Sequence record: PZ445487.1
Length of the DNA stretch: 64,000 nt
Reading direction: 5' to 3' (one strand)
From: a phage
The notes beneath the pieces are model-generated. The model saw only the letters and a program-made list of their open reading frames with translations, ran no database searches and had not been told where the DNA came from. The translations under genes and the position numbers were made by a program. Position 1 is the stretch's first letter, and each line of letters starts with the position of its first letter. Shown piece by piece: positions 4,160-60,814 of this stretch.

Positions 4160-4167
4160 AAATGACC

Positions 4168-4191
4168 AACCCCGCTTCGGCGGGGTTTTCC
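4168..4191 (+). terminator. Rho-independent terminator after gene 18
   Basis: GC hairpin aaccccgc-ttcg-gcggggtt followed by a T-run. Confidence 0.6.
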
Positions 4192-4217
4192 TTTGTCTTA
4201 TTGATTTGAGTTATTGA

Positions 4218-10504: not shown

Positions 10505-10523
10505 GCGACAGGTTTTGATAACA

Positions 10524-10547
10524 AACCCCGCTTCGGCGGGGTTTTTC
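10524..10547 (+). terminator. Rho-independent terminator after gene 23
   Basis: Hairpin aaccccgcttcggcggggtt plus T-run; the 22-nt core is identical to the terminator after gene 18. Confidence 0.6.
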
Positions 10548-10598
10548 TTTATAGGGATATGTAAGATAATAAAGCCTCATTTATCAAAGGAGGTTAAA

Positions 10599-11493: not shown

Positions 11494-11704
11494 GATATAT
11501 CTGGATAAGAACTATTTGGAATCTAAAATCGAAGTTTTCACGGCTCAAAAAATATTTGAAGACGGTGAAACGAGATATTATCTGAATCCAGACCTTTATC
11601 TCCCAGGAAGTAATTTGAATCGCGACATACCCCAAATAGATGGCACAATCATTCGTTGGGAAATAGCGACGCAAGAAGACAACTGTCACAACATAACACT
11701 TTGA
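11471..11704 (+). CDS. Hypothetical protein (77 aa)
   Basis: Internal ATG of track ORF 11366..11704, overlapping the preceding gene end. Confidence 0.3.
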   Translation: MMPTLIRKIYLDKNYLESKIEVFTAQKIFEDGETRYYLNPDLYLPGSNLNRDIPQIDGTIIRWEIATQEDNCHNITL

Positions 11705-11719
11705 AGTGAGAACTACATC

Positions 11720-12166
11720 ATGTCTAAACAAAATTATATCTTTATTAGTCCAGGACGTTCCCAGTTTTTTCGTAGCGACATCGATACACCTATCGAAGGT
11801 TTTCGCATTTTCAAATGCTATAAATTGGCCAGCGGTGACATTGATTATCAAAGTCACGACAATGACCGCCAAGACTTGGTTGATAACGGTTGGGAAGAAA
11901 TAGATTCTCCTCAATATCTGACCGTCAACCTTTATTATATGAAGGAAAGCGGTAAATATTATTCGACTGGGGAGTTGAAAATCCGAGTTTCAGAAGCCCA
12001 ATCCAATCCAGCAAAAAGTTGGTATGACACGCAAGAGTTAGTGCGTGATCTCCTGAAGAAAGGCGAACTGCCTGGCTTGGTTAAAGGTTCCCGTTTTGAT
12101 ACCTTCATGTCCTGTGAACAACACCCGTGCTATGTTCCGACTTTATTTAAAATCAGCAACATGTGA
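11720..12166 (+). CDS. Hypothetical protein (148 aa)
   Basis: ORF preceded by the recurring leader gaactacatcATG. Confidence 0.5.
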   Translation: MSKQNYIFISPGRSQFFRSDIDTPIEGFRIFKCYKLASGDIDYQSHDNDRQDLVDNGWEEIDSPQYLTVNLYYMKESGKYYSTGELKIRVSEAQSNPAKSWYDTQELVRDLLKKGELPGLVKGSRFDTFMSCEQHPCYVPTLFKISNM

Positions 12167-12785: not shown

Positions 12786-12805
12786 ATTTAAAATTTATTC
12801 AATAA

Positions 12806-12839
12806 ACGGGGTTTACTTCTTCAATAAACCCCGTATACT
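12806..12839 (+). promoter_or_regulatory. Hairpin overlapping a sigma70-type early promoter (PeSL-like cassette)
   Basis: Stem acggggttt/aaaccccgt; -35 gtttac (about 12811-12816), 17-nt spacer, -10 tatact (about 12834-12839); conserved leader ataagcag...gaaatgaaggaactacatcATG follows. Confidence 0.5.
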
Positions 12840-12888
12840 TCATTCCATAAGCAGCACAACACTGACTCTGAAATGAAGGAACTACATC

Positions 12889-13353
12889 ATGACAACCGTA
12901 AAAATCTCCGTCTGGGCATTCAACAATTTCACCAAATTTGACGCGTTTGTTAAAAACGCTCTGGGCATCACCAACATAGAATCTTTCACTTCTTATGACC
13001 GCGAAGATCAGGTCAAAATGCTTCGTCCTGAAATCGACCTTGACGCAATGCTGAACGCCATCAAGAATCACGATGACAATCTGGCTGAATTCGAAAACCT
13101 CCGCACCTCTATCTTCAAAAAGAATGGTGGCATCCGTAAGCTGAGCAACAAAACCATCAAATATGTCACCGAAGGGTTCTTTGTGGTGTTCGACTTCATA
13201 GAAACCAAGCCGAACGAACTTCGTAAAGATTTAGACGGCAACGTTATCACCCTGAAAATGTTTGGCGAAGCCAAGGCCGATATGATGCGTGACGGCCTGT
13301 GTGATGAGACATTCACATACGACGAATATTGCGATCAGTGCCAAGATCTGTAA
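12889..13353 (+). CDS. Hypothetical protein (154 aa)
   Basis: First gene downstream of the promoter cassette; RBS aaggaa. Confidence 0.5.
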   Translation: MTTVKISVWAFNNFTKFDAFVKNALGITNIESFTSYDREDQVKMLRPEIDLDAMLNAIKNHDDNLAEFENLRTSIFKKNGGIRKLSNKTIKYVTEGFFVVFDFIETKPNELRKDLDGNVITLKMFGEAKADMMRDGLCDETFTYDEYCDQCQDL

Positions 13354-21986: not shown

Positions 21987-22451
21987 ATGGCGCGTAATAC
22001 GCTGGACATCTTAAAACTTTCAGCTGTCAACGATGAGGCCAGCATTGTTGACTGTATGGTTGAAGTTCAATTGAACCAAGACAAACCAGGGATTTTCCTG
22101 GGTATCAAGGAAACGCTGAGTCGGATAGGGGTTAACACTCGTCAAGAGCCTAACACCTTGTATCAAACGTGCCATATCCTGCATAAATTTGGCAGATATC
22201 ACATCGTGCATTTCAAGCATTTGTTCATGCTAGATGGGCACTACAACGGCTTTACGCGTGAAGATGTCCTGCGTATGAATCGGATTATACGGCTTCTGGA
22301 GCAATGGAATATGGTTAAGATCTTGCATCCGGAACAAATAACCGAAGTGGCTGACATGTCTCGGATCAAAGTTGTAAAACATGACCAAGTTTCTGAGTGG
22401 AAATTGGTTCCAAAATACACTATTCGCCCAAGTCGGGCAAAAAGCGAATAA
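21987..22451 (+). CDS. regA: Translational repressor RegA
   Basis: KETLSRIGV, LYQTCHILHKFGRYHIVHFKHLFMLDG and EWKLVPKYTI match T4 RegA blocks; has about 23 extra N-terminal residues if the SD-supported ATG at 21987 is used. Confidence 0.8.
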   Translation: MARNTLDILKLSAVNDEASIVDCMVEVQLNQDKPGIFLGIKETLSRIGVNTRQEPNTLYQTCHILHKFGRYHIVHFKHLFMLDGHYNGFTREDVLRMNRIIRLLEQWNMVKILHPEQITEVADMSRIKVVKHDQVSEWKLVPKYTIRPSRAKSE

Positions 22452-27540: not shown

Positions 27541-27562
27541 TCTGTCGGCTCCGGCCTGAGCA

Positions 27563-27588
27563 ACCCCGCCGTGTGCGGGGTTTCTTTT
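27563..27588 (+). terminator. Rho-independent terminator
   Basis: ccccgc-cgtgt-gcgggg followed by tttcttttgg. Confidence 0.5.
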
Positions 27589-29454: not shown

Positions 29455-31671
29455 ATGATTGAATCATTAACATTTAAGAATGCGGTTGCGACCGTCGCGC
29501 CGTCTAACCATGTAATCGTTGTGGATATCTCCGGTTCCATGTATCGTTCACTTCCAGAAGTCCGTAAGCATCTGAAGGAGAACCTGCCTTCCCTGGTGAA
29601 ACCGGAAGATACTGTGAGCATCCTTTACTTTTCATCTCGCGGTGATTTCGGAACGGTATTTGCCGGACGTCAGATTAACAGTGCAACTGATCTCAGTGAG
29701 ATCAATAATTTAATTGACCGTTTCCTGAAGCCTTCTGGTTGTACTGGTTTTGTTGAGCCGCTGAAATTGGCTGCGGAAACTGCCATTAGCTTGAATAAAC
29801 CTGGTTATGTTAATAACCTGGCATTCATGACCGACGGATATGACAACTGCTGGCGTTCTAATGAAATCCTGGATGCCGCTGAAGTACTGCCCAAAGCGTT
29901 TGATAACATTACCTTCATCGAATACGGTTGGTATTGTAATCGCGAACTGCTGGCGCTAATGGCAGAACGTTCTGGTGCGACCCACGTATTCGCCGAAGGC
30001 CAGAATGAATATCAGACCGAATTGGAAAACGTGCTAAAAACTTCTTCACCGAAAGTGGTGGTCGATGTTCCCCTGGTTTACACCCATGCCATTTATGTTG
30101 AAAATGGCGTGGCGACTGTTTTAGCTGTGCATCCTGATGAAGAGCACCCTATTGGCCACGTCAGCATCCCTGAAAGCGTTTCTCAGCTGTGGGTTGTAAA
30201 CCCCAACATGATCGACCAGCTGGATAATCTGGCAGACATCCAAGCGGCATACGTGCTGGCATTTTACGGCGTGTATACCATGGACGCAGATTTGGTTTGG
30301 GCTGCGCTGAAGAAAACGGGTGACGTCCGCTTCATCAAACAATACAGCAACTGTTTCACCAAGCAGGATTACTCCAACATCAAAGTCGATCTGACTCAGG
30401 CTATCGTAGACGAATCTCTGCGAGGAGTTGATGGCATCGATTATAATATGGTTCCGGCTGAAGACGCCACCACCATTGTTGATGTTCTGACGTATTTGGC
30501 TGAAGCAGATGTCTCTATCGTCACCAAGCATCCGCTATTCTCTTACAAGAGCATTGGGCGCGGTACTATACAAAAAGTTGACGACACCGAAGACAAGTTG
30601 GCCGAAGAGATTGCGAATGCGACTTCTAAAGAAGAGCGTAAAGCCCTGGCGCTCAAACTGGCCGAGCACGAAGATTGGACGCCGGAATTCAATCCAGCAG
30701 ATGATAAAGGGATTGTCCCGATCAGCAATTTGGTCTATAATTCAGAACGTCCTAACATCAGTGTGCAGACAGTTCAACACGGAACGGTTATTGTGCCTGA
30801 GTTTGTACAGAAGAAATATGAACTTCCTGAAGAGCTGGGAACCTGGCGTTATCGCAATTACACCATTGTCAAGGATGGTATCATCAACCTGAAAACAATG
30901 CCTATCACTGCAGATTCTCCGATTGTTCGGGCTAAGGTGGCACAGGATTTGACTGCCATGGGTGTTCATGTGTTTGGTGGGCCGGAAGTCTTCATTGTAA
31001 ATCTGGAAAGTGTCCCAATGGTTAACCGCGCCATGACAAAGAATATCAGTGCTGCTGAATTCTTTGCAGACAATGTGCGCCGTGAAGCATTGAAGGCAAA
31101 GCAAAAAGTTCTGAAATTCTACCGTGATGAACTGGTTGGCAAAGGCAACGCTACTGGTCTGGCTTCAAAATATGGCAAAGAAGCGGCTGATTTCCTGTCA
31201 GCAAACGGCATTCGCGACTATGGATTTTCACCGAAGACTTCTTCTGTAGAATCAACCGATGTCTATATGAGTCGTGAATTGAATGTGAAAATCAAAGGCG
31301 CATCTTCACTGCCGAGCATCGCGTCTGTTATCAAAAAACAGACGGACGGTAAAAAACTGAATGTCGCTGATCAGCTGATCGCTAATGCCCTGGCCGAATA
31401 CAATGCGTTTGTTAAATCGCCGATGATCACCAGCGTACCGGAAGAGACTCAGAAAAAGCTGATCGAAAGTTGGATTGGTGATGCAGCAAAAGCAGCTATC
31501 AACGAAGTTCGATCTCTGAACAAAACGCTGTCCAAGGTAGTTTATGGGATTGTTGCAGGCCATGGTTGGTTTACCGACCTGGATTTGGAAGAATCCACTA
31601 TGGATGTGGAAGTTGATGGGGTGAAATACACTGTCACTGCCGAACTGGCTGAAAAAGAAGTCAAAATCTAA
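29455..31671 (+). CDS. von Willebrand factor A (vWA) domain protein (738 aa)
   Basis: N-terminus carries the MIDAS motif in VIVVDISGSMY (DxSxS) with downstream T and D positions typical of vWA; about 550 aa of unassigned sequence follow. SD aagaagg before ATG 29455. Confidence 0.55.
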   Translation: MIESLTFKNAVATVAPSNHVIVVDISGSMYRSLPEVRKHLKENLPSLVKPEDTVSILYFSSRGDFGTVFAGRQINSATDLSEINNLIDRFLKPSGCTGFVEPLKLAAETAISLNKPGYVNNLAFMTDGYDNCWRSNEILDAAEVLPKAFDNITFIEYGWYCNRELLALMAERSGATHVFAEGQNEYQTELENVLKTSSPKVVVDVPLVYTHAIYVENGVATVLAVHPDEEHPIGHVSIPESVSQLWVVNPNMIDQLDNLADIQAAYVLAFYGVYTMDADLVWAALKKTGDVRFIKQYSNCFTKQDYSNIKVDLTQAIVDESLRGVDGIDYNMVPAEDATTIVDVLTYLAEADVSIVTKHPLFSYKSIGRGTIQKVDDTEDKLAEEIANATSKEERKALALKLAEHEDWTPEFNPADDKGIVPISNLVYNSERPNISVQTVQHGTVIVPEFVQKKYELPEELGTWRYRNYTIVKDGIINLKTMPITADSPIVRAKVAQDLTAMGVHVFGGPEVFIVNLESVPMVNRAMTKNISAAEFFADNVRREALKAKQKVLKFYRDELVGKGNATGLASKYGKEAADFLSANGIRDYGFSPKTSSVESTDVYMSRELNVKIKGASSLPSIASVIKKQTDGKKLNVADQLIANALAEYNAFVKSPMITSVPEETQKKLIESWIGDAAKAAINEVRSLNKTLSKVVYGIVAGHGWFTDLDLEESTMDVEVDGVKYTVTAELAEKEVKI

Positions 31672-31679
31672 ATTCAACT

Positions 31680-31700
31680 GGCGGGGAAACCCGCCTTCAT
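31680..31700 (+). terminator. Rho-independent terminator after the vWA gene
   Basis: ggcgggg-aaa-cccgcc then ttcatttt. Confidence 0.5.
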
Positions 31701-31714
31701 TTTGAGATATGCTT

Positions 31715-32026
31715 ATGTCAAACAAACCAACTTATGTTGAAGTAATGCGTGTTCTGGCTCAGTACGCTTGTGACAACCTGAACATGGAAACTTGGCGCAA
31801 CGGGGATCACAAGGACAAGTTTGATAACATTGATGATAATATCGATGCTTTAGCGCCGTTACGGGTTAAGAATGATCTCGGCGGTGACGATCTTGACATG
31901 ATTGAGCTGGTCATGGAAATCGAAGAAGAGTACGATGTAGAAATTAGTGACGAGTGGGTGGGTAAACATGGAGATGATCCTACCCTCGGAGAGTTAGCTG
32001 AACTCGTCGTTGCCCTGCGCAAGTAA
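31715..32026 (+). CDS. Acyl carrier protein-like protein with Asp in place of the phosphopantetheine-attachment Ser
   Basis: DLGGDDLDMIELVMEIEEEYDVEISDE aligns to the ACP core DLGADSLD(T/M)VELVMALEEEF...I.DE, but the modified Ser is D (codon gat). Confidence 0.5.
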   Translation: MSNKPTYVEVMRVLAQYACDNLNMETWRNGDHKDKFDNIDDNIDALAPLRVKNDLGGDDLDMIELVMEIEEEYDVEISDEWVGKHGDDPTLGELAELVVALRK

Positions 32027-32032
32027 CTGAAG

Positions 32033-32059
32033 ATCCCCAACAAACGTTGGGGATTTTTA
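32033..32059 (+). terminator. Rho-independent terminator
   Basis: atccccaac-aaac-gttggggat followed by ttttt. Confidence 0.55.
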
Positions 32060-32068
32060 CTTTTAGGG

Positions 32069-32098
32069 GTTTACTTCTATAAGGCAAATGCGTATTAT
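32069..32098 (+). promoter_or_regulatory. Sigma70-type early promoter
   Basis: -35 gtttac, 18-nt spacer, -10 tattat, about 50 nt upstream of the ATG at 32150. Confidence 0.45.
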
Positions 32099-32149
32099 TC
32101 AATAACTGGCGAACGATGGGTTCACCAGGTTGAAAGGTAAGATTATATC

Positions 32150-32389
32150 ATGAAGAACAAAATGGTAGAAACTTCAGTGGAGATTGATCGTAATTGGGGC
32201 TTGCTCCGCGCTAAAGGGTTCCGTCGTGTGTATGCGACCAAAGAAGTATATGCCCAGCGCCGCGATGTTATCATCAGCAAGAAGGGAAAAGATTGGGTTG
32301 CCGAAGAAGTCGATGTCGAAACAGGCGTCGTCGGAAAGGTGAAAGCCAAGGCCGCGATCCTCTTCGCTCTTCTGAAGCACATCAGTTAA
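32150..32389 (+). CDS. Hypothetical basic protein (79 aa)
   Basis: ORF with RBS aaggtaag upstream. Confidence 0.45.
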   Translation: MKNKMVETSVEIDRNWGLLRAKGFRRVYATKEVYAQRRDVIISKKGKDWVAEEVDVETGVVGKVKAKAAILFALLKHIS

Positions 32390-32405
32390 TTCTATAACTT
32401 AGGGT

Positions 32406-32448
32406 GGGGTATGATTACCCCGCCTATTTGAAATGAAGGAAATACATC
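32406..32448 (+). promoter_or_regulatory. Conserved 5' leader: hairpin plus atttgaaatgaaggaaatacatc
   Basis: Hairpin ggggta-tgat-tacccc followed by the conserved leader; nearly identical to the element at 32962..33007. Confidence 0.45.
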
Positions 32449-32955
32449 ATGACCGATCAACAAATTCAAGATTTATTTTACCTCGTCCATGATAAGTCCC
32501 ACATCATGCGCCCTGGCACTGTTTCCCCTGCCATCCGTGGTCTGGTGCAAGAATTACGCGAACCGCAGATGACCACACTTTATCGCGGGTTGCCTAAAGA
32601 GGACGTTGCGCGTTTGGAGATGATGTTTGAACGAGGAGACATGTTTCAGACATGGGATTCTTGTCTTAGTTTCAGCGAACTGAAGCATGTGGCCAAACAA
32701 TTTTCTAAATCGTATGGAACCAAAGCTGTTGCCCGCATTTGTTATAAACATCGAAACGGACTCCCAGAGGGGCTTAATGTCTTTGGTTCTCTAGAAAAAT
32801 TTGTGAACAAAGGCGATGAATCAGAAATGGATATGCTGGACTTGGCGTCCATGGAGAAAGAATGGATATTCTGTCAGCCTCGCGTCTTCCCAGTTTCAAG
32901 AAAAATGGCAACAGATGGGACGATGGTTTTTACCGTATCACTTGTTACCCTATAA
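32449..32955 (+). CDS. Putative ADP-ribosyltransferase (ModA/ModB-like)
   Basis: R-S-ExE arrangement: LYRGLP (Arg), WDSCLSFS (Ser motif), EKEWIF (ExE) in the order and spacing of T4 ModA as I recall it; 168 aa. Confidence 0.4.
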   Translation: MTDQQIQDLFYLVHDKSHIMRPGTVSPAIRGLVQELREPQMTTLYRGLPKEDVARLEMMFERGDMFQTWDSCLSFSELKHVAKQFSKSYGTKAVARICYKHRNGLPEGLNVFGSLEKFVNKGDESEMDMLDLASMEKEWIFCQPRVFPVSRKMATDGTMVFTVSLVTL

Positions 32956-32961
32956 ACCCAC

Positions 32962-33007
32962 GGCGGGGTATCTTTGCCCCGCCCATTTGAAATGAAGGAA
33001 CTATATC
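32962..33007 (+). promoter_or_regulatory. Conserved 5' leader: hairpin plus atttgaaatgaaggaactatatc (second copy)
   Basis: Hairpin ggcgggg-tatctttg-ccccgcc plus leader; the downstream gene also begins MTDQ. Confidence 0.45.
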
Positions 33008-33286
33008 ATGACAGATCAAAGAAGTATTGCTCGTTCGGAAATCAAAGATATTATACAGAGCAAAACCAACGAAACTCATGCTCAATCCAGAATGCTATCT
33101 CGATTTGTTGAAATTAAGTTTGACATTGAAGAGAATAACAATCGGAGAGCGCTGGAGGGAATGTTGGCGATTATCTTGGGCCATGTCACCAATTCAGCAT
33201 ACGACATGGATGATTTAACTCGTTTGTTGAACGCCCAGAATAACGTTGGGAATTCTGTTCGCGAATTGCTGTTTAAGTCCGAATGA
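33008..33286 (+). CDS. Hypothetical protein (92 aa)
   Basis: Shares leader and first four codons (MTDQ) with 32449..32955; the rest is unrelated. Confidence 0.45.
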   Translation: MTDQRSIARSEIKDIIQSKTNETHAQSRMLSRFVEIKFDIEENNNRRALEGMLAIILGHVTNSAYDMDDLTRLLNAQNNVGNSVRELLFKSE

Positions 33287-33323
33287 ACTAACTAAGGGAT
33301 AATCCTATATCCCGAGGTGTGTC

Positions 33324-33773
33324 ATGTTCCTTACATCCTTTATTGACTGGATGAATATCATAAATGGCCTGAGGATTCCTGTTGGGAACCTCGGGCTTTC
33401 TCGTTCTTCTATGCCGCAAATCGATGCCGACAAACAAGAAGATTTTCACAAATATCTTGAAGACAACGGCGTGTCCATAGATGCTGCGCAAGTGCCCATC
33501 AAAATGCTTCGTCTTACCCAGAACGAAATCAATAAAATGAAGGTCTGGAAGATTATGAAGCAGATCAGAAATAAGAAGCCCATGGGTCGAGTTTGGGTGT
33601 CTTCTGACAATTACGTTGTTGACGGGTCTCACCGATTTGTCGCTGCGTTGAACATGGACGGCAAACAGCGCATGAAGGTCTACAAAGTTGATTTGCCAGC
33701 GATGGAATTTGTTAAACTCGCTAAACAGTTTCAGGGTGTGCGATACAGAACGGTCTCAGATTCGAGATACTAA
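33324..33773 (+). CDS. ParB/sulfiredoxin-like nuclease-domain protein
   Basis: YVVDGSHRFVAA matches the ParB N-terminal domain signature (x-DG-HR-xA). Confidence 0.45.
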   Translation: MFLTSFIDWMNIINGLRIPVGNLGLSRSSMPQIDADKQEDFHKYLEDNGVSIDAAQVPIKMLRLTQNEINKMKVWKIMKQIRNKKPMGRVWVSSDNYVVDGSHRFVAALNMDGKQRMKVYKVDLPAMEFVKLAKQFQGVRYRTVSDSRY

Positions 33774-33774
33774 T

Positions 33775-34050
33775 ATGGACGTCTATTCAGAACTTATCGA
33801 AATAGGAGCGAAACGTCATTTCGTAAACAAATATCTTTCGCTCATTTCTTCTTTTAGTCATTACCAAGGCGTCGGGGAGAAGCACCTATTGAAAGGTAAG
33901 ACGAGAGGGGAAGCCCTGAAACAAGTATTCGGTTCCAATGACGCAGAAATTTGGGCACAGGTTCGGCCAATTATTCTACGGTTGGATAACGGTTGGGACC
34001 CTTTAACTTGCGAAAAATGGGTTAATCGTTATGGGGTGGAATACCAGTAA
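33775..34050 (+). CDS. Hypothetical protein (91 aa)
   Basis: Internal ATG of track ORF 33688..34050 chosen to avoid overlap. Confidence 0.35.
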   Translation: MDVYSELIEIGAKRHFVNKYLSLISSFSHYQGVGEKHLLKGKTRGEALKQVFGSNDAEIWAQVRPIILRLDNGWDPLTCEKWVNRYGVEYQ

Positions 34051-34144
34051 ACCACCCGTTTCTGAATACGATAGTTTATTGAAACCCTTTACTCAACATG
34101 GTGACAGCCCTATCATTTTATCCAATGAAATAAGGAGAATCACC

Positions 34145-34834
34145 ATGAAACGTTTAATCATCGGGGTTGTGCTGGCTGGTCTGGCACTTCCTGCCACCGC
34201 CAAGCTGAATTCCACGGGTGAAAAACTGTGGTCTGATCTTTCCTACTGTGCTGGGTTCTCCCAAGCCGTCGCTATAGACAAAACTGGTTCCATAGAGAAC
34301 TTTGCTGAACTCTGGACCACAGGTAATGTCACAGATGCCGTTGTAAATGCTGGTATTGAGTTTAATCGATATAAGCAAGGCGCGTTCAACCTGAAAGGAT
34401 ATATGAACGACAAAGAATTTAACCGAGGAGGCATGGAGGCGAGCGATCTTATTATGACTGGTCGTATGGGCACACAAGGACGAATGACCGTAAGACAGTG
34501 CCGTTCTCTTCCTTCTCCAGCATTACAAAAAGGTGTGCAGGTTGGCCGACGTCAGCTGGATCTCATCAATGATGGCAACCAATGTATCCGAGTATTTGAA
34601 TACAGTGCTGATCAAGAATCAGATCGACGTTTGAAAAAGGAATGGCGGACTCGCGCCCTTGGCCTGAGAGCATGGCTGGTGGAAAATGATCATTATTATG
34701 AAGACCGTGTTCAGAATGGTTTGAAAGATCTTTCCACTAATTTGTCTGTCAATCTTGATGATCCCAGGCTTGCCCGTGAACTCAAGCAAACAAGAATTGA
34801 CTGTGATAATATGATGAAGGAGAACGAAAGATGA
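34145..34834 (+). CDS. Secreted/periplasmic hypothetical protein
   Basis: SD aaggag; N-terminal signal peptide MKRLIIGVVLAGLALPATA. Confidence 0.5.
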   Translation: MKRLIIGVVLAGLALPATAKLNSTGEKLWSDLSYCAGFSQAVAIDKTGSIENFAELWTTGNVTDAVVNAGIEFNRYKQGAFNLKGYMNDKEFNRGGMEASDLIMTGRMGTQGRMTVRQCRSLPSPALQKGVQVGRRQLDLINDGNQCIRVFEYSADQESDRRLKKEWRTRALGLRAWLVENDHYYEDRVQNGLKDLSTNLSVNLDDPRLARELKQTRIDCDNMMKENER

Positions 34835-48176: not shown

Positions 48177-48189
48177 AATATTCAATAAA

Positions 48190-48232
48190 AGGGGCAAAAG
48201 CCCCTTTACTTCTTCAATAACCCACGTATAAT
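48190..48232 (+). promoter_or_regulatory. Hairpin overlapping a sigma70-type early promoter (PeSL-like cassette)
   Basis: Hairpin aggggc-aaaa-gcccct; -35 ctttac, 17-nt spacer, -10 tataat; conserved leader ataagcag...aggaactacattATG follows. Confidence 0.5.
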
Positions 48233-48280
48233 TCTAAACATAAGCAGTACGACACCAACTTGAAAAGCAGGAACTACATT

Positions 48281-48556
48281 ATGAAAATCATCCTCGACGC
48301 ATATATCCGTTACGGCAGCAAATGGTTGATGGCCAAAGTTTACGACGGTGAAGAATTAGTCCACGCCCAAACCGCCCCTTCTGAACAATTGCGTGAAATT
48401 ATGAAACGCGATTTTCCTACTGCTGAAATGATTGAACCTGCCAACCAAACCGAAGTTGACAAAGAATGGGAACGCGAATGGAGTCCGGCGGCGTTGGCAC
48501 AATTTGATAAGAATTACAACAATCGCCAAAACGCGTCTCGCCCGTTTCGTCGTTAA
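48281..48556 (+). CDS. Hypothetical protein (91 aa)
   Basis: ATG after the conserved leader; the track ORF begins at an upstream TTG (48260). Confidence 0.45.
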   Translation: MKIILDAYIRYGSKWLMAKVYDGEELVHAQTAPSEQLREIMKRDFPTAEMIEPANQTEVDKEWEREWSPAALAQFDKNYNNRQNASRPFRR

Positions 48557-54020: not shown

Positions 54021-54059
54021 AAATACTTCAAAAATAATTTAAAAATTTATTGAAAAAGA

Positions 54060-54089: not shown

Positions 54090-54166
54090 AGTTCACATAG
54101 GGCGGTACACAACACCCCGCCGAATGAAAAGTGAAACGACCCAACTACATTATGAGGAATTACATC

Positions 54167-54655
54167 ATGGCTACTACCAAAACTCTGATCACCAACGGCA
54201 CCATCTCTTTTGAACTGAACACCGAAGTTGCAAAAGTTGAAATGTTCCGCATCGCTCAGGCAGCTGGCTTCACTGGTGGCAAAACTTCCTTCATGAATCT
54301 GCTGAACGGCAAAGTGAAAGCGACCAACGGCTTCACCCTGGTAGAGCAGGTTGTCGTAGACAAAGCCGTGGTTGCCAAGACTGCTGACAAGGTTGGCATG
54401 CTGAAAGACCTGGGCCATGACATCCACGTTGTCGAAGCGAACACCGAAACTTACGGCACCATCGTAGTCGGTAAAGGTCGCATTCAGCTGAACCCGCTGA
54501 ACAACGGAACCTTCTCCGTGATGGTATTCCCGAAAAAGGGTTATGACAACAGCGATATCGTGAAAGCCGCTGGCGGTGAAGCGAAATCCCAGTATGTCAA
54601 AATGGGTAAACTGAGCGCCGACGCAGTAGAAACTCTGGTGAACAAACTGGCTTAA
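54167..54655 (+). CDS. Hypothetical protein (162 aa), probably highly expressed
   Basis: Framed by a promoter, the conserved leader and a strong terminator; Gly/Val/Lys/Thr-rich; no motif recognised. Confidence 0.5.
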   Translation: MATTKTLITNGTISFELNTEVAKVEMFRIAQAAGFTGGKTSFMNLLNGKVKATNGFTLVEQVVVDKAVVAKTADKVGMLKDLGHDIHVVEANTETYGTIVVGKGRIQLNPLNNGTFSVMVFPKKGYDNSDIVKAAGGEAKSQYVKMGKLSADAVETLVNKLA

Positions 54656-60529: not shown

Positions 60530-60580
60530 TCCCAGTAATTCATTGGCAAACGCCACAAATTGAATAGCAGGAACTATATC

Positions 60581-60814
60581 ATGACCAACTCTGAAATATA
60601 TCATGCTTCTATGCATTATCACGACCTACGCGCCCGTCCAGGACACGCCAAACAAAAAGCATTCTGGGTGGCAGAACTCAGATTACGCCGTGCTGTCGTT
60701 AACCACCAAATAATCATGAATCGGAAAAACGACAAATCACCGTTGTTGGCAGATTCTTATCTTGAACTCCGCACAGCCTATGAACAAGCCAAACAGCACG
60801 TAATAGGAGCATAA
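60581..60814 (+). CDS. Hypothetical protein (77 aa)
   Basis: ATG after the conserved leader; the track ORF begins at an upstream TTG (60560). Confidence 0.45.
   Translation: MTNSEIYHASMHYHDLRARPGHAKQKAFWVAELRLRRAVVNHQIIMNRKNDKSPLLADSYLELRTAYEQAKQHVIGA

What the first reader, a model, noticed from the sequence alone, without database searches (positions are those of the whole stretch)
32390..33019. Duplicated 5' leader and first four codons (MTDQ) in front of two unrelated genes
The 60 nt before ATG 32449 and the 52 nt before ATG 33008 share a hairpin followed by atttgaaatgaagga-a-ta-atcATGac-gatcaa, and both genes begin Met-Thr-Asp-Gln although the proteins differ afterwards. A shorter form of the same leader (gaaatgaaggaactacatcATG) precedes the genes at 11720, 12889, 48281, 54167 and 60581. 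This points to a shared translation-initiation or regulatory module, or to recombination between leader copies.
Basis: seen in the sequence. Interest (0 to 1): 0.5.

Follow-up and report, generated by a model that had tools for sequence, protein, structure and literature searches.

The report
Duplicated regulatory cassette flanking a mobile phage gene
In phage CBA120, two copies of a short hairpin-plus-ribosome-site cassette bracket a swappable gene, and related phages show different genes plugged in at this same cassette; this kind of gene shuffling is already known from T4-like phages.

Summary
The window is Escherichia phage CBA120 (Kuttervirus, Ackermannviridae), reverse strand. A 65-70 nt unit occurs twice, 559 nt apart, before orf140 (32449) and orf138 (33008), at 81-83% identity. 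It holds a GC stem-loop, ATTTGAAA, an AAGGA Shine-Dalgarno, an A(A/C)TA(C/T)ATC spacer and ATG-ACN-GAT-CAA. It is the third-best of 20,301 upstream-region pairs in the genome. The two proteins are unrelated.

Copy A fits a genome-wide composite motif: a TTCAATAA-like box, 12 nt, then a -10-like hexamer at the apex of a hairpin, about 30 nt before the ATG. Copy B is a degenerate hairpin-plus-ribosome-site copy.

In the fetched relatives and IMG/VR contigs, copy A is conserved but is followed by orf140, orf138, denV, an MKKLILAV gene or a remnant. Phages lacking orf140 are exactly 559 nt shorter and carry one cassette. The orf140-plus-B module also sits before a different gene in Aglimvirinae phages.

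So this is a PeSL-like cassette whose duplication marks recombinational insertion or excision of a gene module. Promoter, terminator and translational roles are inferred, not shown. Only 1 of 14 CBA120/ViI indel boundaries in the window shows flanking repeats. Verdict: new member of a known kind, moderate interest.

The parts
32070..32098 (+). Sigma-70-like early promoter of the orf141-orf140-orf138-orf137 gene string (TTTACT-17 nt-TATTAT). The 71-nt block 32033-32103 that contains it is itself duplicated around an extra ORF in phage SJ3.
   Evidence: Consensus scan; duplication in SJ3.
32150..32389 (+). orf141 (79 aa, phrog_804), the conserved left anchor of the variable slot.
   Evidence: Annotation; PHROG match; present in all relatives examined.
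32390..32397 (+). Copy A box TTCTATAA, a one-mismatch variant of the genome-wide TTCAATAA box, lying 12 nt upstream of the -10-like hexamer. With the preceding TAA and the following TAG it gives stop codons in all three frames.
   Evidence: Composite motif scan; a perfect TTCAATAA at the same place in IMG/VR contig L030; sequence reading.
32402..32425 (+). Copy A stem-loop GGGTGGGGTA-TGAT-TACCCCGCCT (-18.8 kcal/mol). The -10-like TATGAT (32410-32415) sits at its apex.
   Evidence: Fold; 96% of cells paired, with compensatory and G-U changes, across 21 copies.
32426..32460 (+). Copy A leader and start: ATTTGAAA, SD AAGGA (32436-32440), spacer AATACATC, then ATG ACC GAT CAA.
32449..32955 (+). 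orf140 (168 aa), the mobile cargo. It matches the PHROG family named RNA polymerase ADP-ribosylase.
   Evidence: phrog_832, E 1e-15; presence or absence and divergent alleles in relatives.
32962..32983 (+). Copy B stem-loop GGCGGGGTA-TCTT-TGCCCCGCC (-19.2 kcal/mol), 6 nt after the orf140 stop codon. Its loop varies and is even inverted in relatives.
   Evidence: Fold; alignment.
32985..33019 (+). Copy B leader and start: ATTTGAAA, SD AAGGA (32995-32999), spacer ACTATATC, then ATG ACA GAT CAA.
33008..33286 (+). orf138 (92 aa, phrog_4458). It keeps MTDQ in every context examined, including behind denV without a hairpin.
33287..33323 (+). Right-hand junction of the slot: conserved CTAACTAAGGGATAAYCCTATATCCCGAGGTGTGTC ahead of orf137. 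It is a recurrent right breakpoint (33283-33288).
12869..12894 (+). Short-form leader copy before orf176. It is 25 of 26 nt identical to copy B and lies downstream of a TTTACTTCTTCAATAA-N6-TATACT early promoter.
48261..48286 (+). Short-form leader copy before orf112.
60561..60586 (+). Short-form leader copy before orf096.
54132..54169 (+). Two tandem short-form leader remnants before orf104 (TACATTATG at 54146, TACATCATG at 54161).
11699..11722 (+). Short-form leader (TTTGAAGTGAGAACTACATC ATG) before orf180.

Best explanation
The two leaders are paralogous copies of a composite intergenic regulatory cassette of phage CBA120. Its order is: stop-codon-rich AT stretch, GC-rich stem-loop, ATTTGAAA, AAGGA Shine-Dalgarno, A(A/C)TA(C/T)ATC spacer, ATG. 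The two copies bracket a mobile gene module, orf140.

The duplication is the footprint of homologous recombination at the cassette. Either a circular or linear [orf140 + cassette] module was inserted, or the reverse excision occurred. The homology or conversion tract runs 12 nt into the reading frames, which explains why two unrelated proteins both start MTDQ.

Shown: the repeat and its significance; membership of copy A in a genome-wide box/-10-in-hairpin motif family; conservation of the hairpin with compensatory changes; and breakpoints at the cassette with five alternative cargos in relatives.

Inferred: in the mRNA read from the early promoter at 32070, each stem-loop acts as an attenuator, a 3'-end stabiliser and an insulator that leaves the A/U-rich leader and SD single-stranded for efficient initiation. 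Copy A may also fire as an internal promoter that needs a factor recognising the box at about -30. Copy B is only hairpin plus ribosome site.
For: Repeat statistics.

Motif family: TTCAATAA (up to 1 mismatch), 11-13 nt, TATAAT (up to 1 mismatch) gives 20 hits against 2.9 in shuffles. Thirteen of them lie 27-51 nt upstream of a same-strand ATG, and copy A is one of these. In 9-10 of the 13 the hexamer is at the apex of a -12 to -26 kcal/mol hairpin.

Hairpin conservation: across 21 copies, 96% of cells are paired, 3 pairs change on both sides, and GC, GU and AU variants occur at one pair, G-U being a valid pair only in the sense-strand RNA.

Comparative evidence:
- allotria and ECML-4 have one cassette and are exactly 559 nt shorter. 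The allotria cassette aligns to both A and B, with 90% identity on the left flank and 98.7% on the right.
- Copy A is followed by denV (Vi01, BSP101, S117, LIMEstone1), by an MKKLILAV gene (A221, Gloob, KpS110), by an 8-codon remnant (Guerrero) or by orf140.
- In MK-13, ZQ1 and AV101, orf140 plus copy B sits before the MKKLILAV gene.
- In SJ3 a second 71-nt duplication, of the early promoter, flanks another extra ORF in the same locus.

The A and B copies of one genome share the genome-specific SD-proximal variant in CBA120, bering and CRW-SP2. The architecture matches the published PeSL description: stop codon, AT-rich stretch, promoter, stem-loop overlapping the -10, SD, start (PMC2839356; PMC4122927).
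Against: - No canonical -35 lies upstream of either copy, and the consensus scan calls neither a promoter nor a terminator there, because the U-tract is only UUU.
- The loop of copy B, and with it the -10-like hexamer, is degenerate (TATCTT) or inverted (TAATCA) in relatives, so promoter activity is unlikely for B.
- The CTATAA at the left end of copy B is the coding end and stop codon of orf140, so that part of the resemblance may be coincidental.
- Of 14 indel boundaries between CBA120 and ViI in this window, only the orf140 module is flanked by a significant direct repeat. Cassette-flanked insertion is therefore not the general rule here.
- Concerted evolution of A and B is not seen in Det7 or Mutine.
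- No transcript, ribosome or recombination data exist for this phage in the searched literature.
Confidence: 0.72

Rival explanations
1. The shared sequence is only an optimised translation-initiation region, selected independently in front of highly expressed early genes. The hairpins would be unrelated terminators, and recombination would play no part.
For: The SD and spacer part recurs before at least 17 genes scattered over the genome. The fold predicts the leader to be unpaired. Second codons ACN and GCN are common in this genome.
Against: Identity also covers the hairpin arms and ATTTGAAA and continues into codons 2-4, which happens in 7.8e-4 of random gene pairs. Relatives show a precise 559-nt indel with a single hybrid cassette, and identity jumps at the cassette. 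Convergence does not predict either.
Confidence: 0.08
2. The conserved GGAACUAYAUC-AUG-AC region is an operator for a phage trans-acting factor. One candidate is the RegA-like translational repressor encoded in this window (orf160, 21987-22451); another is an endoribonuclease. The factor would co-regulate a regulon of about 17 early genes. The duplication would then be maintained for regulation. This is compatible with the recombination history.
For: The subfamily of 17 genes with TAYATY directly before the ATG is far above chance. Most of them are first genes behind early-type promoters. A RegA homologue is annotated in CBA120 and ViI. From general knowledge, T4 RegA binds the initiation regions of many early mRNAs.
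Against: The motif does not resemble the T4 or RB69 RegA target sequences as I recall them. No binding data exist. Common descent of cassettes by duplication explains the similarity without any factor. Relatives tolerate several variants of the spacer.
Confidence: 0.15
3. Both cassettes are active internal promoters of a phage-specific class: a box at about -30 plus a -10, as in MotA-dependent T4 middle promoters. On this reading the inverted repeat acts at the DNA level, and the leader is the 5' end of the transcripts.
For: Copy A satisfies the box, 12-nt spacing and hexamer motif, which is enriched 7-fold and positioned 27-51 nt before start codons. Box and hexamer are conserved in copy A from Kuttervirus to Taipeivirus while neighbouring bases vary. 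PmSL-type cassettes, with a Mot box and a TATTAT -10, are described for phage nt-1.
Against: Copy B has 3 mismatches in the box, which moreover overlaps orf140 codons, and 2 in the hexamer. Its loop flips orientation in ZQ1 and bering. G-U pairs in the stems point to selection on the sense RNA, which is transcribed from upstream. No MotA or AsiA homologue has been reported (PMC3184105). No transcription start data exist.
Confidence: 0.25
4. orf140 and orf138 are diverged tandem paralogues, and the shared leader plus MTDQ is what remains of a whole-gene duplication.
For: The two genes are adjacent, in the same orientation, with the same start.
Against: BLASTP finds no alignment at all. The proteins have different lengths and belong to different PHROG families. 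orf138 occurs without orf140 and orf140 occurs without orf138.
Confidence: 0.02

Closest known systems
PeSLs (promoter-early stem-loops) and PmSLs of T4-like phages RB49/phi1, T4/PST and KVP40/nt-1 (Arbiol et al. 2010, PMC2839356; Comeau et al. 2014, PMC4122927)
   Same: Both are repeated intergenic cassettes of roughly 70-100 nt. Both contain the upstream stop codon in an AT-rich stretch, a promoter-like element, a G-run/C-run stem-loop that can overlap the -10 box, and the SD and start codon of the next gene. Both concentrate in variable regions before small genes of unknown function. In both, a gene flanked by two cassettes in one phage corresponds to a single cassette in a close relative. 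The CBA120 early promoters (TTTACT-N16-17-TATACT) also match the T4/PST PeSL consensus TTTACW-N17-TAYWAT.
   Different: The host phage belongs to Ackermannviridae, not the T4-like myoviruses; the two PeSL papers I read do not mention ViI-like phages. Neither copy here has a recognisable -35. Copy A instead has a TTCAATAA-like box 12 nt from the hexamer, and copy B has lost promoter features. The U-tract is too weak for a canonical terminator. The repeat extends 12 nt into the coding sequence. Mini-circles and promoter or terminator activity are untested. Only 1 of 14 indel boundaries against ViI in the window is repeat-flanked.
T4 MotA/AsiA-dependent middle promoters
   Same: Both have a conserved box centred near -30, about 12 nt upstream of a TAnnnT-type -10, in place of a -35 element.
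   Different: The box sequence is TTCAATAA, not TGCTT. No MotA or AsiA homologue is reported for CBA120. The hexamer sits in a hairpin loop. Activity is untested. This is a resemblance in layout only.
Intercistronic stem-loops and intrinsic terminators or attenuators in phage operons
   Same: Both are stable GC hairpins directly after a stop codon, followed by a T-rich stretch and the next ribosome binding site.
   Different: Only three consecutive T follow the stem, so the simple terminator definition fails. Their function as RNA 3'-end stabilisers is inferred.

Membership tests
PeSL-type composite promoter/terminator cassettes | A repeated motif family located in intergenic regions immediately upstream of ORFs | tested here: met
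   Repeat families D1 and D2. Box/hexamer composite: 20 hits against 2.9 in shuffles, 13 of them 27-51 nt before an ATG. The pair ranks third of 20,301.
PeSL-type composite promoter/terminator cassettes | A sigma-70-like promoter with -35 and -10 boxes inside the cassette | tested here: not met
   The consensus scan finds no promoter at copy A or B. With a 17-nt spacer the -35 position of copy A reads TAATTC. Only a -10-like TATGAT (A) or TATCTT (B) is present. Other CBA120 cassettes (orf176, orf112, orf141, orf234) do have TTTACT-N16-17-TATAYT.
PeSL-type composite promoter/terminator cassettes | A stable GC-rich stem-loop adjacent to or overlapping the promoter boxes | tested here: met
   -18.8 and -19.2 kcal/mol, z about -3.7. 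96% of cells paired with compensatory changes in 21 copies. The hexamer lies at the hairpin apex, as in the PeSL subclass that overlaps the -10.
PeSL-type composite promoter/terminator cassettes | Upstream stop codon in an AT-rich 5' part; SD and start codon of the downstream gene at the 3' end | tested here: met
   Copy A: TAA at 32387-32389, then TTCTATAACTTAG (stops in three frames), AAGGA and ATG. Copy B: TAA at 32953-32955, AAGGA and ATG.
PeSL-type composite promoter/terminator cassettes | Association with insertion, deletion or replacement between related phages: two cassettes flank the gene, and one cassette remains at the empty site | tested here: met
   allotria and ECML-4 have a single hybrid cassette and are 559 nt shorter. 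Five cargos occur behind copy A. The orf140-plus-B module occurs in a second context. This does not generalise to the other 13 indel boundaries against ViI.
PeSL-type composite promoter/terminator cassettes | Demonstrated promoter and terminator activity, and formation of mini-circles | not testable with these tools
   This needs reporter fusions, transcript mapping and outward PCR on lysates.
Intrinsic (rho-independent) terminator | A GC-rich hairpin followed by a U-tract (at least 5 T in 8) | tested here: not met
   Neither hairpin is called; the tails are TATTTGAA and CATTTGAA. The neighbouring hairpin at 31680-31695 is called.
T4-type MotA-dependent middle promoter | A MotA box (TGCTT) at -30 plus the MotA and AsiA proteins | tested here: not met
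   The box is TTC(A/T)ATAA. The genome paper reports no MotA or AsiA homologue. I ran no protein search of my own for them.
Known structured RNA families (Rfam) | A match to any covariance model | tested here: not met
   No match with E up to 1 in 31500-34200 on either strand.

The most novel reading that the evidence does not exclude
The TTCAATAA box about 12 nt upstream of a -10 hexamer held in the loop of a GC hairpin may define a promoter class of Ackermannviridae. Such a class would depend on a still unidentified activator or sigma-appropriation factor, as a functional analogue of T4 MotA/AsiA. The same GC palindromes may also be preferred break or template-switch sites, for example for the gp46/47 SbcCD-like nuclease, which would explain the loop inversions seen in copy B. 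On this reading one element would couple gene expression to targeted gene-cassette exchange across genera.
Probability: 0.2. Interest if true: 0.6.

Novelty: new member of a known kind. Interest (0 to 1): 0.4.

Why it matters
The regulatory signals of ViI-like (Ackermannviridae) phages, which are widely used for biocontrol and phage engineering, are poorly defined. The CBA120 genome paper could not identify early or middle promoters by informatics.

This locus gives three concrete things:
- A portable expression cassette, with a defined insertion slot between orf141 and orf137 that nature uses for at least five different cargos, among them an ADP-ribosyltransferase-like gene and the denV repair gene.
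- A candidate promoter motif: TTCAATAA, 12 nt, then TATAAT in a hairpin.
- Evidence that the PeSL mode of modular shuffling operates outside the T4-like phages and moves modules between Kuttervirus and Aglimvirinae phages such as MK-13, ZQ1 and AV101.

It is incremental rather than surprising for phage genomicists.

Tried and rejected
- Whole-gene paralogy of orf140 and orf138: rejected, BLASTP finds no alignment.
- A known RNA family or riboswitch: nothing in Rfam at E up to 1.
- A canonical sigma-70 promoter or intrinsic terminator at either copy: not called.
- A generic Shine-Dalgarno context: rejected, because genome-wide information is limited to the SD and -3/-2 while a 17-gene subfamily carries the spacer.
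- Generalising cassette-flanked insertion to all indels: tested against ViI over the 64-kb window, and only 1 of 14 boundaries has a significant flanking repeat.
- Deciding which gene donated MTDQ: unresolved. orf138 has MTDQ in all contexts. The most divergent orf140 homologue (CRW-SP2, 67%) starts MKEVD. The 55%-identical alleles (barely, PhiSH19) carry the CBA120-type first 20 codons because of a breakpoint about 80 nt into the gene.
- Literature searches for promoter or transcript data on Kuttervirus and Ackermannviridae, and for the TTCAATAA motif: nothing relevant found.
- Pfam: no domain in any of the four proteins.
- Concerted evolution of A and B: seen in CBA120, bering and CRW-SP2 but not in Det7 or Mutine, so I claim it only as occasional.

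Full report
**Identity of the window.** The 64-kb window is the reverse complement of Escherichia phage CBA120 (NC_016570/JN593240; Kuttervirus, Ackermannviridae). It corresponds to record positions 110301 down to 46302, so record = 110302 - window. It differs from the RefSeq record at two bases. The gene at 32449 is orf140 (168 aa; RefSeq names it RNA polymerase ADP-ribosylase; phrog_832, E 1e-15). The gene at 33008 is orf138 (92 aa, phrog_4458).

**The observation.**
- Local alignment gives 70 columns, from CTATAA to the fourth codon, about 81% identical.
- The repeat finder reports a 65-nt direct repeat (32396-32460 against 32955-33019, 83%, spacing 559). It also reports a six-copy 26-nt leader family (12869, 32429, 32988, 48261, 54132, 60561). 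These are the two top repeat families of the window.
- In an all-against-all comparison of the -80..+15 regions of the 202 of 203 CBA120 genes that have a full 100-nt upstream region, the orf138/orf140 pair ranks third of 20,301 (score 44.5; mean 8.3, sd 1.8). It sits behind orf112/orf176 (early promoter cassettes) and orf211/orf212.
- Each copy folds into a 9-10 bp GC stem with a tetraloop, about -19 kcal/mol, and the downstream leader is predicted unpaired.
- The two proteins are unrelated. Only 7.8e-4 of gene pairs share at least 8 of 9 nt in codons 2-4.

**Is the short form a generic Shine-Dalgarno context?** It is not. Aligned on the ATG, the 202 genes carry information only at the SD (-12 to -8) and weakly at -3 and -2. 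TA(C/T)AT(C/T) directly before the ATG nevertheless occurs in 17 genes against about 0.3 expected. TAYATYATG occurs 15 times in the window against 2.7 in shuffles, and 14 of those are on the coding strand. The copies at 12889, 48281 and 60581 lie behind sigma-70-like promoters of the form TTTACTT...TATAYT.

**What the cassette is.**
- Copy A reads: TAA (orf141 stop), TTCTATAA, 12 nt, TATGAT at the apex of the hairpin, ATTTGAAA, AAGGA, AATACATC, ATG.
- TTCAATAA is strongly over-represented: 17 in the window against 4.4 expected, and 44 in the genome, about 25 of them intergenic and 50-100 nt upstream of a same-strand start.
- A neutral scan for TTCAATAA (up to 1 mismatch), 11-13 nt, TATAAT (up to 1 mismatch) gives 20 hits against 2.9 in shuffles. 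Thirteen lie 27-51 nt before an ATG, and copy A is one of them.
- In 9-10 of these 13 the hexamer sits at the apex of a hairpin of -12 to -26 kcal/mol. Several of those hairpins have a proper T-run.
- The orf130 cassette aligns with copy A element by element.
- Copy B has only the hairpin and the ribosome-site part. Its 'box' is the coding end of orf140 (…CTA TAA), and its hexamer is degenerate.
- Neither copy has a -35, and neither is called a promoter or an intrinsic terminator by the consensus scans. Rfam has no match.

**Related genomes.** I fetched 19 related loci and 13 IMG/VR contigs. Copy A is conserved behind the orf141 homologue in Kuttervirus, Agtrevirus and other Aglimvirinae, Limestonevirus and Taipeivirus. 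What follows it differs:

| Cargo after copy A | Phages |
|---|---|
| orf140 | CBA120, SJ3, Det7, Mutine, bering, MK-13, ZQ1, AV101 |
| orf138 directly | allotria, ECML-4 |
| denV | ViI, BSP101, S117, LIMEstone1 |
| an MKKLILAV gene | A221, Gloob, KpS110 |
| an 8-codon remnant | Guerrero |

- The orf138-direct genomes are exactly 559 nt shorter. The single allotria cassette aligns to both A (32403-32460) and B (32962-33019). Flank identity jumps from 90% on the left to 98.7% on the right.
- In MK-13, ZQ1 and AV101, orf140 plus copy B sits before the MKKLILAV gene. Homology to CBA120 ends in ATTTGAAA, and the SD-proximal leader is that of the resident gene.
- Behind denV, orf138 keeps MTDQ but has no hairpin.
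- Divergent orf140 alleles exist. CRW-SP2 (67% identical) starts MKEVD. barely and PhiSH19 (55%) share the first 20 codons with CBA120 because of a breakpoint about 80 nt inside the gene.
- In SJ3, a 71-nt duplication of the early promoter block 32033-32103 flanks yet another extra ORF.

**Structure conservation.** In an alignment of 21 A and B copies the nine stem pairs are 96% paired. Three pairs change on both sides, and GC, GU and AU variants occur at one pair. Shifted-register controls drop to 39-61% paired. G-U pairs are valid only in the sense RNA, which argues for a role of the hairpin in read-through mRNA. The loop of copy B is TATCTTTG, TATGATTA or its exact inverse TAATCATA. The hexamer is therefore dispensable in B, and the palindrome itself undergoes inversion.

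**Interpretation.** The locus between orf141 and orf137 is a variable slot bounded by conserved junction cassettes. The duplicated leader in CBA120 is the footprint of recombination at the cassette that inserted, or can excise, the orf140 module. The tract reaches codon 4, which accounts for the shared MTDQ. Who donated these codons is not resolved; orf138 is favoured. The A and B copies share the genome-specific SD-proximal variant in CBA120, bering and CRW-SP2, but not in Det7 or Mutine. This suggests occasional conversion between copies.

Functionally, I infer that the hairpin attenuates, stabilises and insulates the polycistronic early mRNA started at 32070, and that the A/U-rich leader with AAGGA is an efficient initiation region. 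Promoter activity of copy A is possible but would need a factor reading the box at about -30.

**Comparison with what is known.** The architecture and behaviour match the PeSLs, and partly the PmSLs, described for T4-like phages (PMC2839356; PMC4122927). Those papers do not mention ViI-like phages, and my literature searches found no description of these motifs in Ackermannviridae. Membership fails on the -35 box and is untestable for promoter/terminator activity and for mini-circles.

As a check on over-generalisation, I examined the 14 indel boundaries between CBA120 and ViI in the window. Only the orf140 module has a significant flanking repeat (score 44.5; null maximum 16.5).

**Verdict.** The feature is a new member of a known kind and of moderate interest.

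Noticed in passing
L004:1534-1604 and L004:1890-1960 (Salmonella phage SJ3); window 32033-32103: A 71-nt block holding the early promoter of orf141 is present twice in SJ3 and flanks an extra 231-nt ORF. This is a second cassette-flanked insertion in the same locus.
   Followed up: partly
window 33287-33323: CTAACTAAGGGATAAYCCTATATCCCGAGGTGTGTC ahead of orf137 is conserved from Kuttervirus to Taipeivirus. It is the recurrent right-hand breakpoint (33283-33288) of the variable slot, and it contains a small GGGATA/TATCCC hairpin and stop codons.
   Followed up: partly
window 33755-34054: This roughly 300-nt segment (the orf136 region, with a TTG start) is absent from most relatives. Phage pSC20 carries an 834-nt gene at this position instead. 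It is another indel hot spot, without flanking repeats.
   Followed up: partly
L015:1439-1520 (ZQ1) and L020:1390-1471 (bering) versus L014:2340-2421 (MK-13): The apex of hairpin B is exactly inverted between phages (GGGGTATGATTACCCC versus GGGGTAATCATACCCC). It looks like a flip of the loop within the palindrome.
   Followed up: no
window 32449-32955: orf140 matches the PHROG family of RNA polymerase ADP-ribosylases (Alt/Mod-like) at E 1e-15. The 2011 genome paper, in contrast, describes no apparent homologues of the T4 early and middle regulatory proteins, among which it discusses the ADP-ribosylating Alt protein. The gene is present in only some Kutterviruses.
   Followed up: partly
L022 and L023 (phages barely, PhiSH19), locus positions 901-980: These orf140 alleles are only 55% identical overall, yet they carry the CBA120-type cassette and first 20 codons. 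This implies a recombination breakpoint about 80 nt inside the gene.
   Followed up: partly
whole CBA120 genome; in the window, for example upstream of 7211 (orf192), 8251 (orf188), 17582 (orf165), 51061 (orf109) and 51663 (orf108): CTAAATA(C) recurs about 25-35 nt upstream of many structural and late genes. It looks like the late-promoter counterpart of T4 TATAAATA. From memory, this has been noted for ViI-like phages.
   Followed up: no
window 54132-54169: Two tandem copies of the leader end (AACTACATT-ATG and AATTACATC-ATG) precede orf104. The upstream ATG (54152) is in frame, so the true start is ambiguous.
   Followed up: no
window 12798-12827 and 48181-48220; also 54047-54054 (minus strand): TTCAATAA boxes occur in pairs around the early promoters of orf176 and orf112: one upstream of a hairpin and one inside the -35/-10 spacer. 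An inverted box lies upstream of orf104. This may be a binding site for a dimeric factor.
   Followed up: no
window 4162-4194, 10518-10550, 27556-27588: A family of near-identical canonical terminators (AACCCCGCTTCGGCGGGGTTTT) is repeated in the window and elsewhere in the genome.
   Followed up: no
window 60581-60605: The motif GAAATATATCATG recurs 16 nt inside orf096, out of frame, directly after its own leader copy.
   Followed up: no
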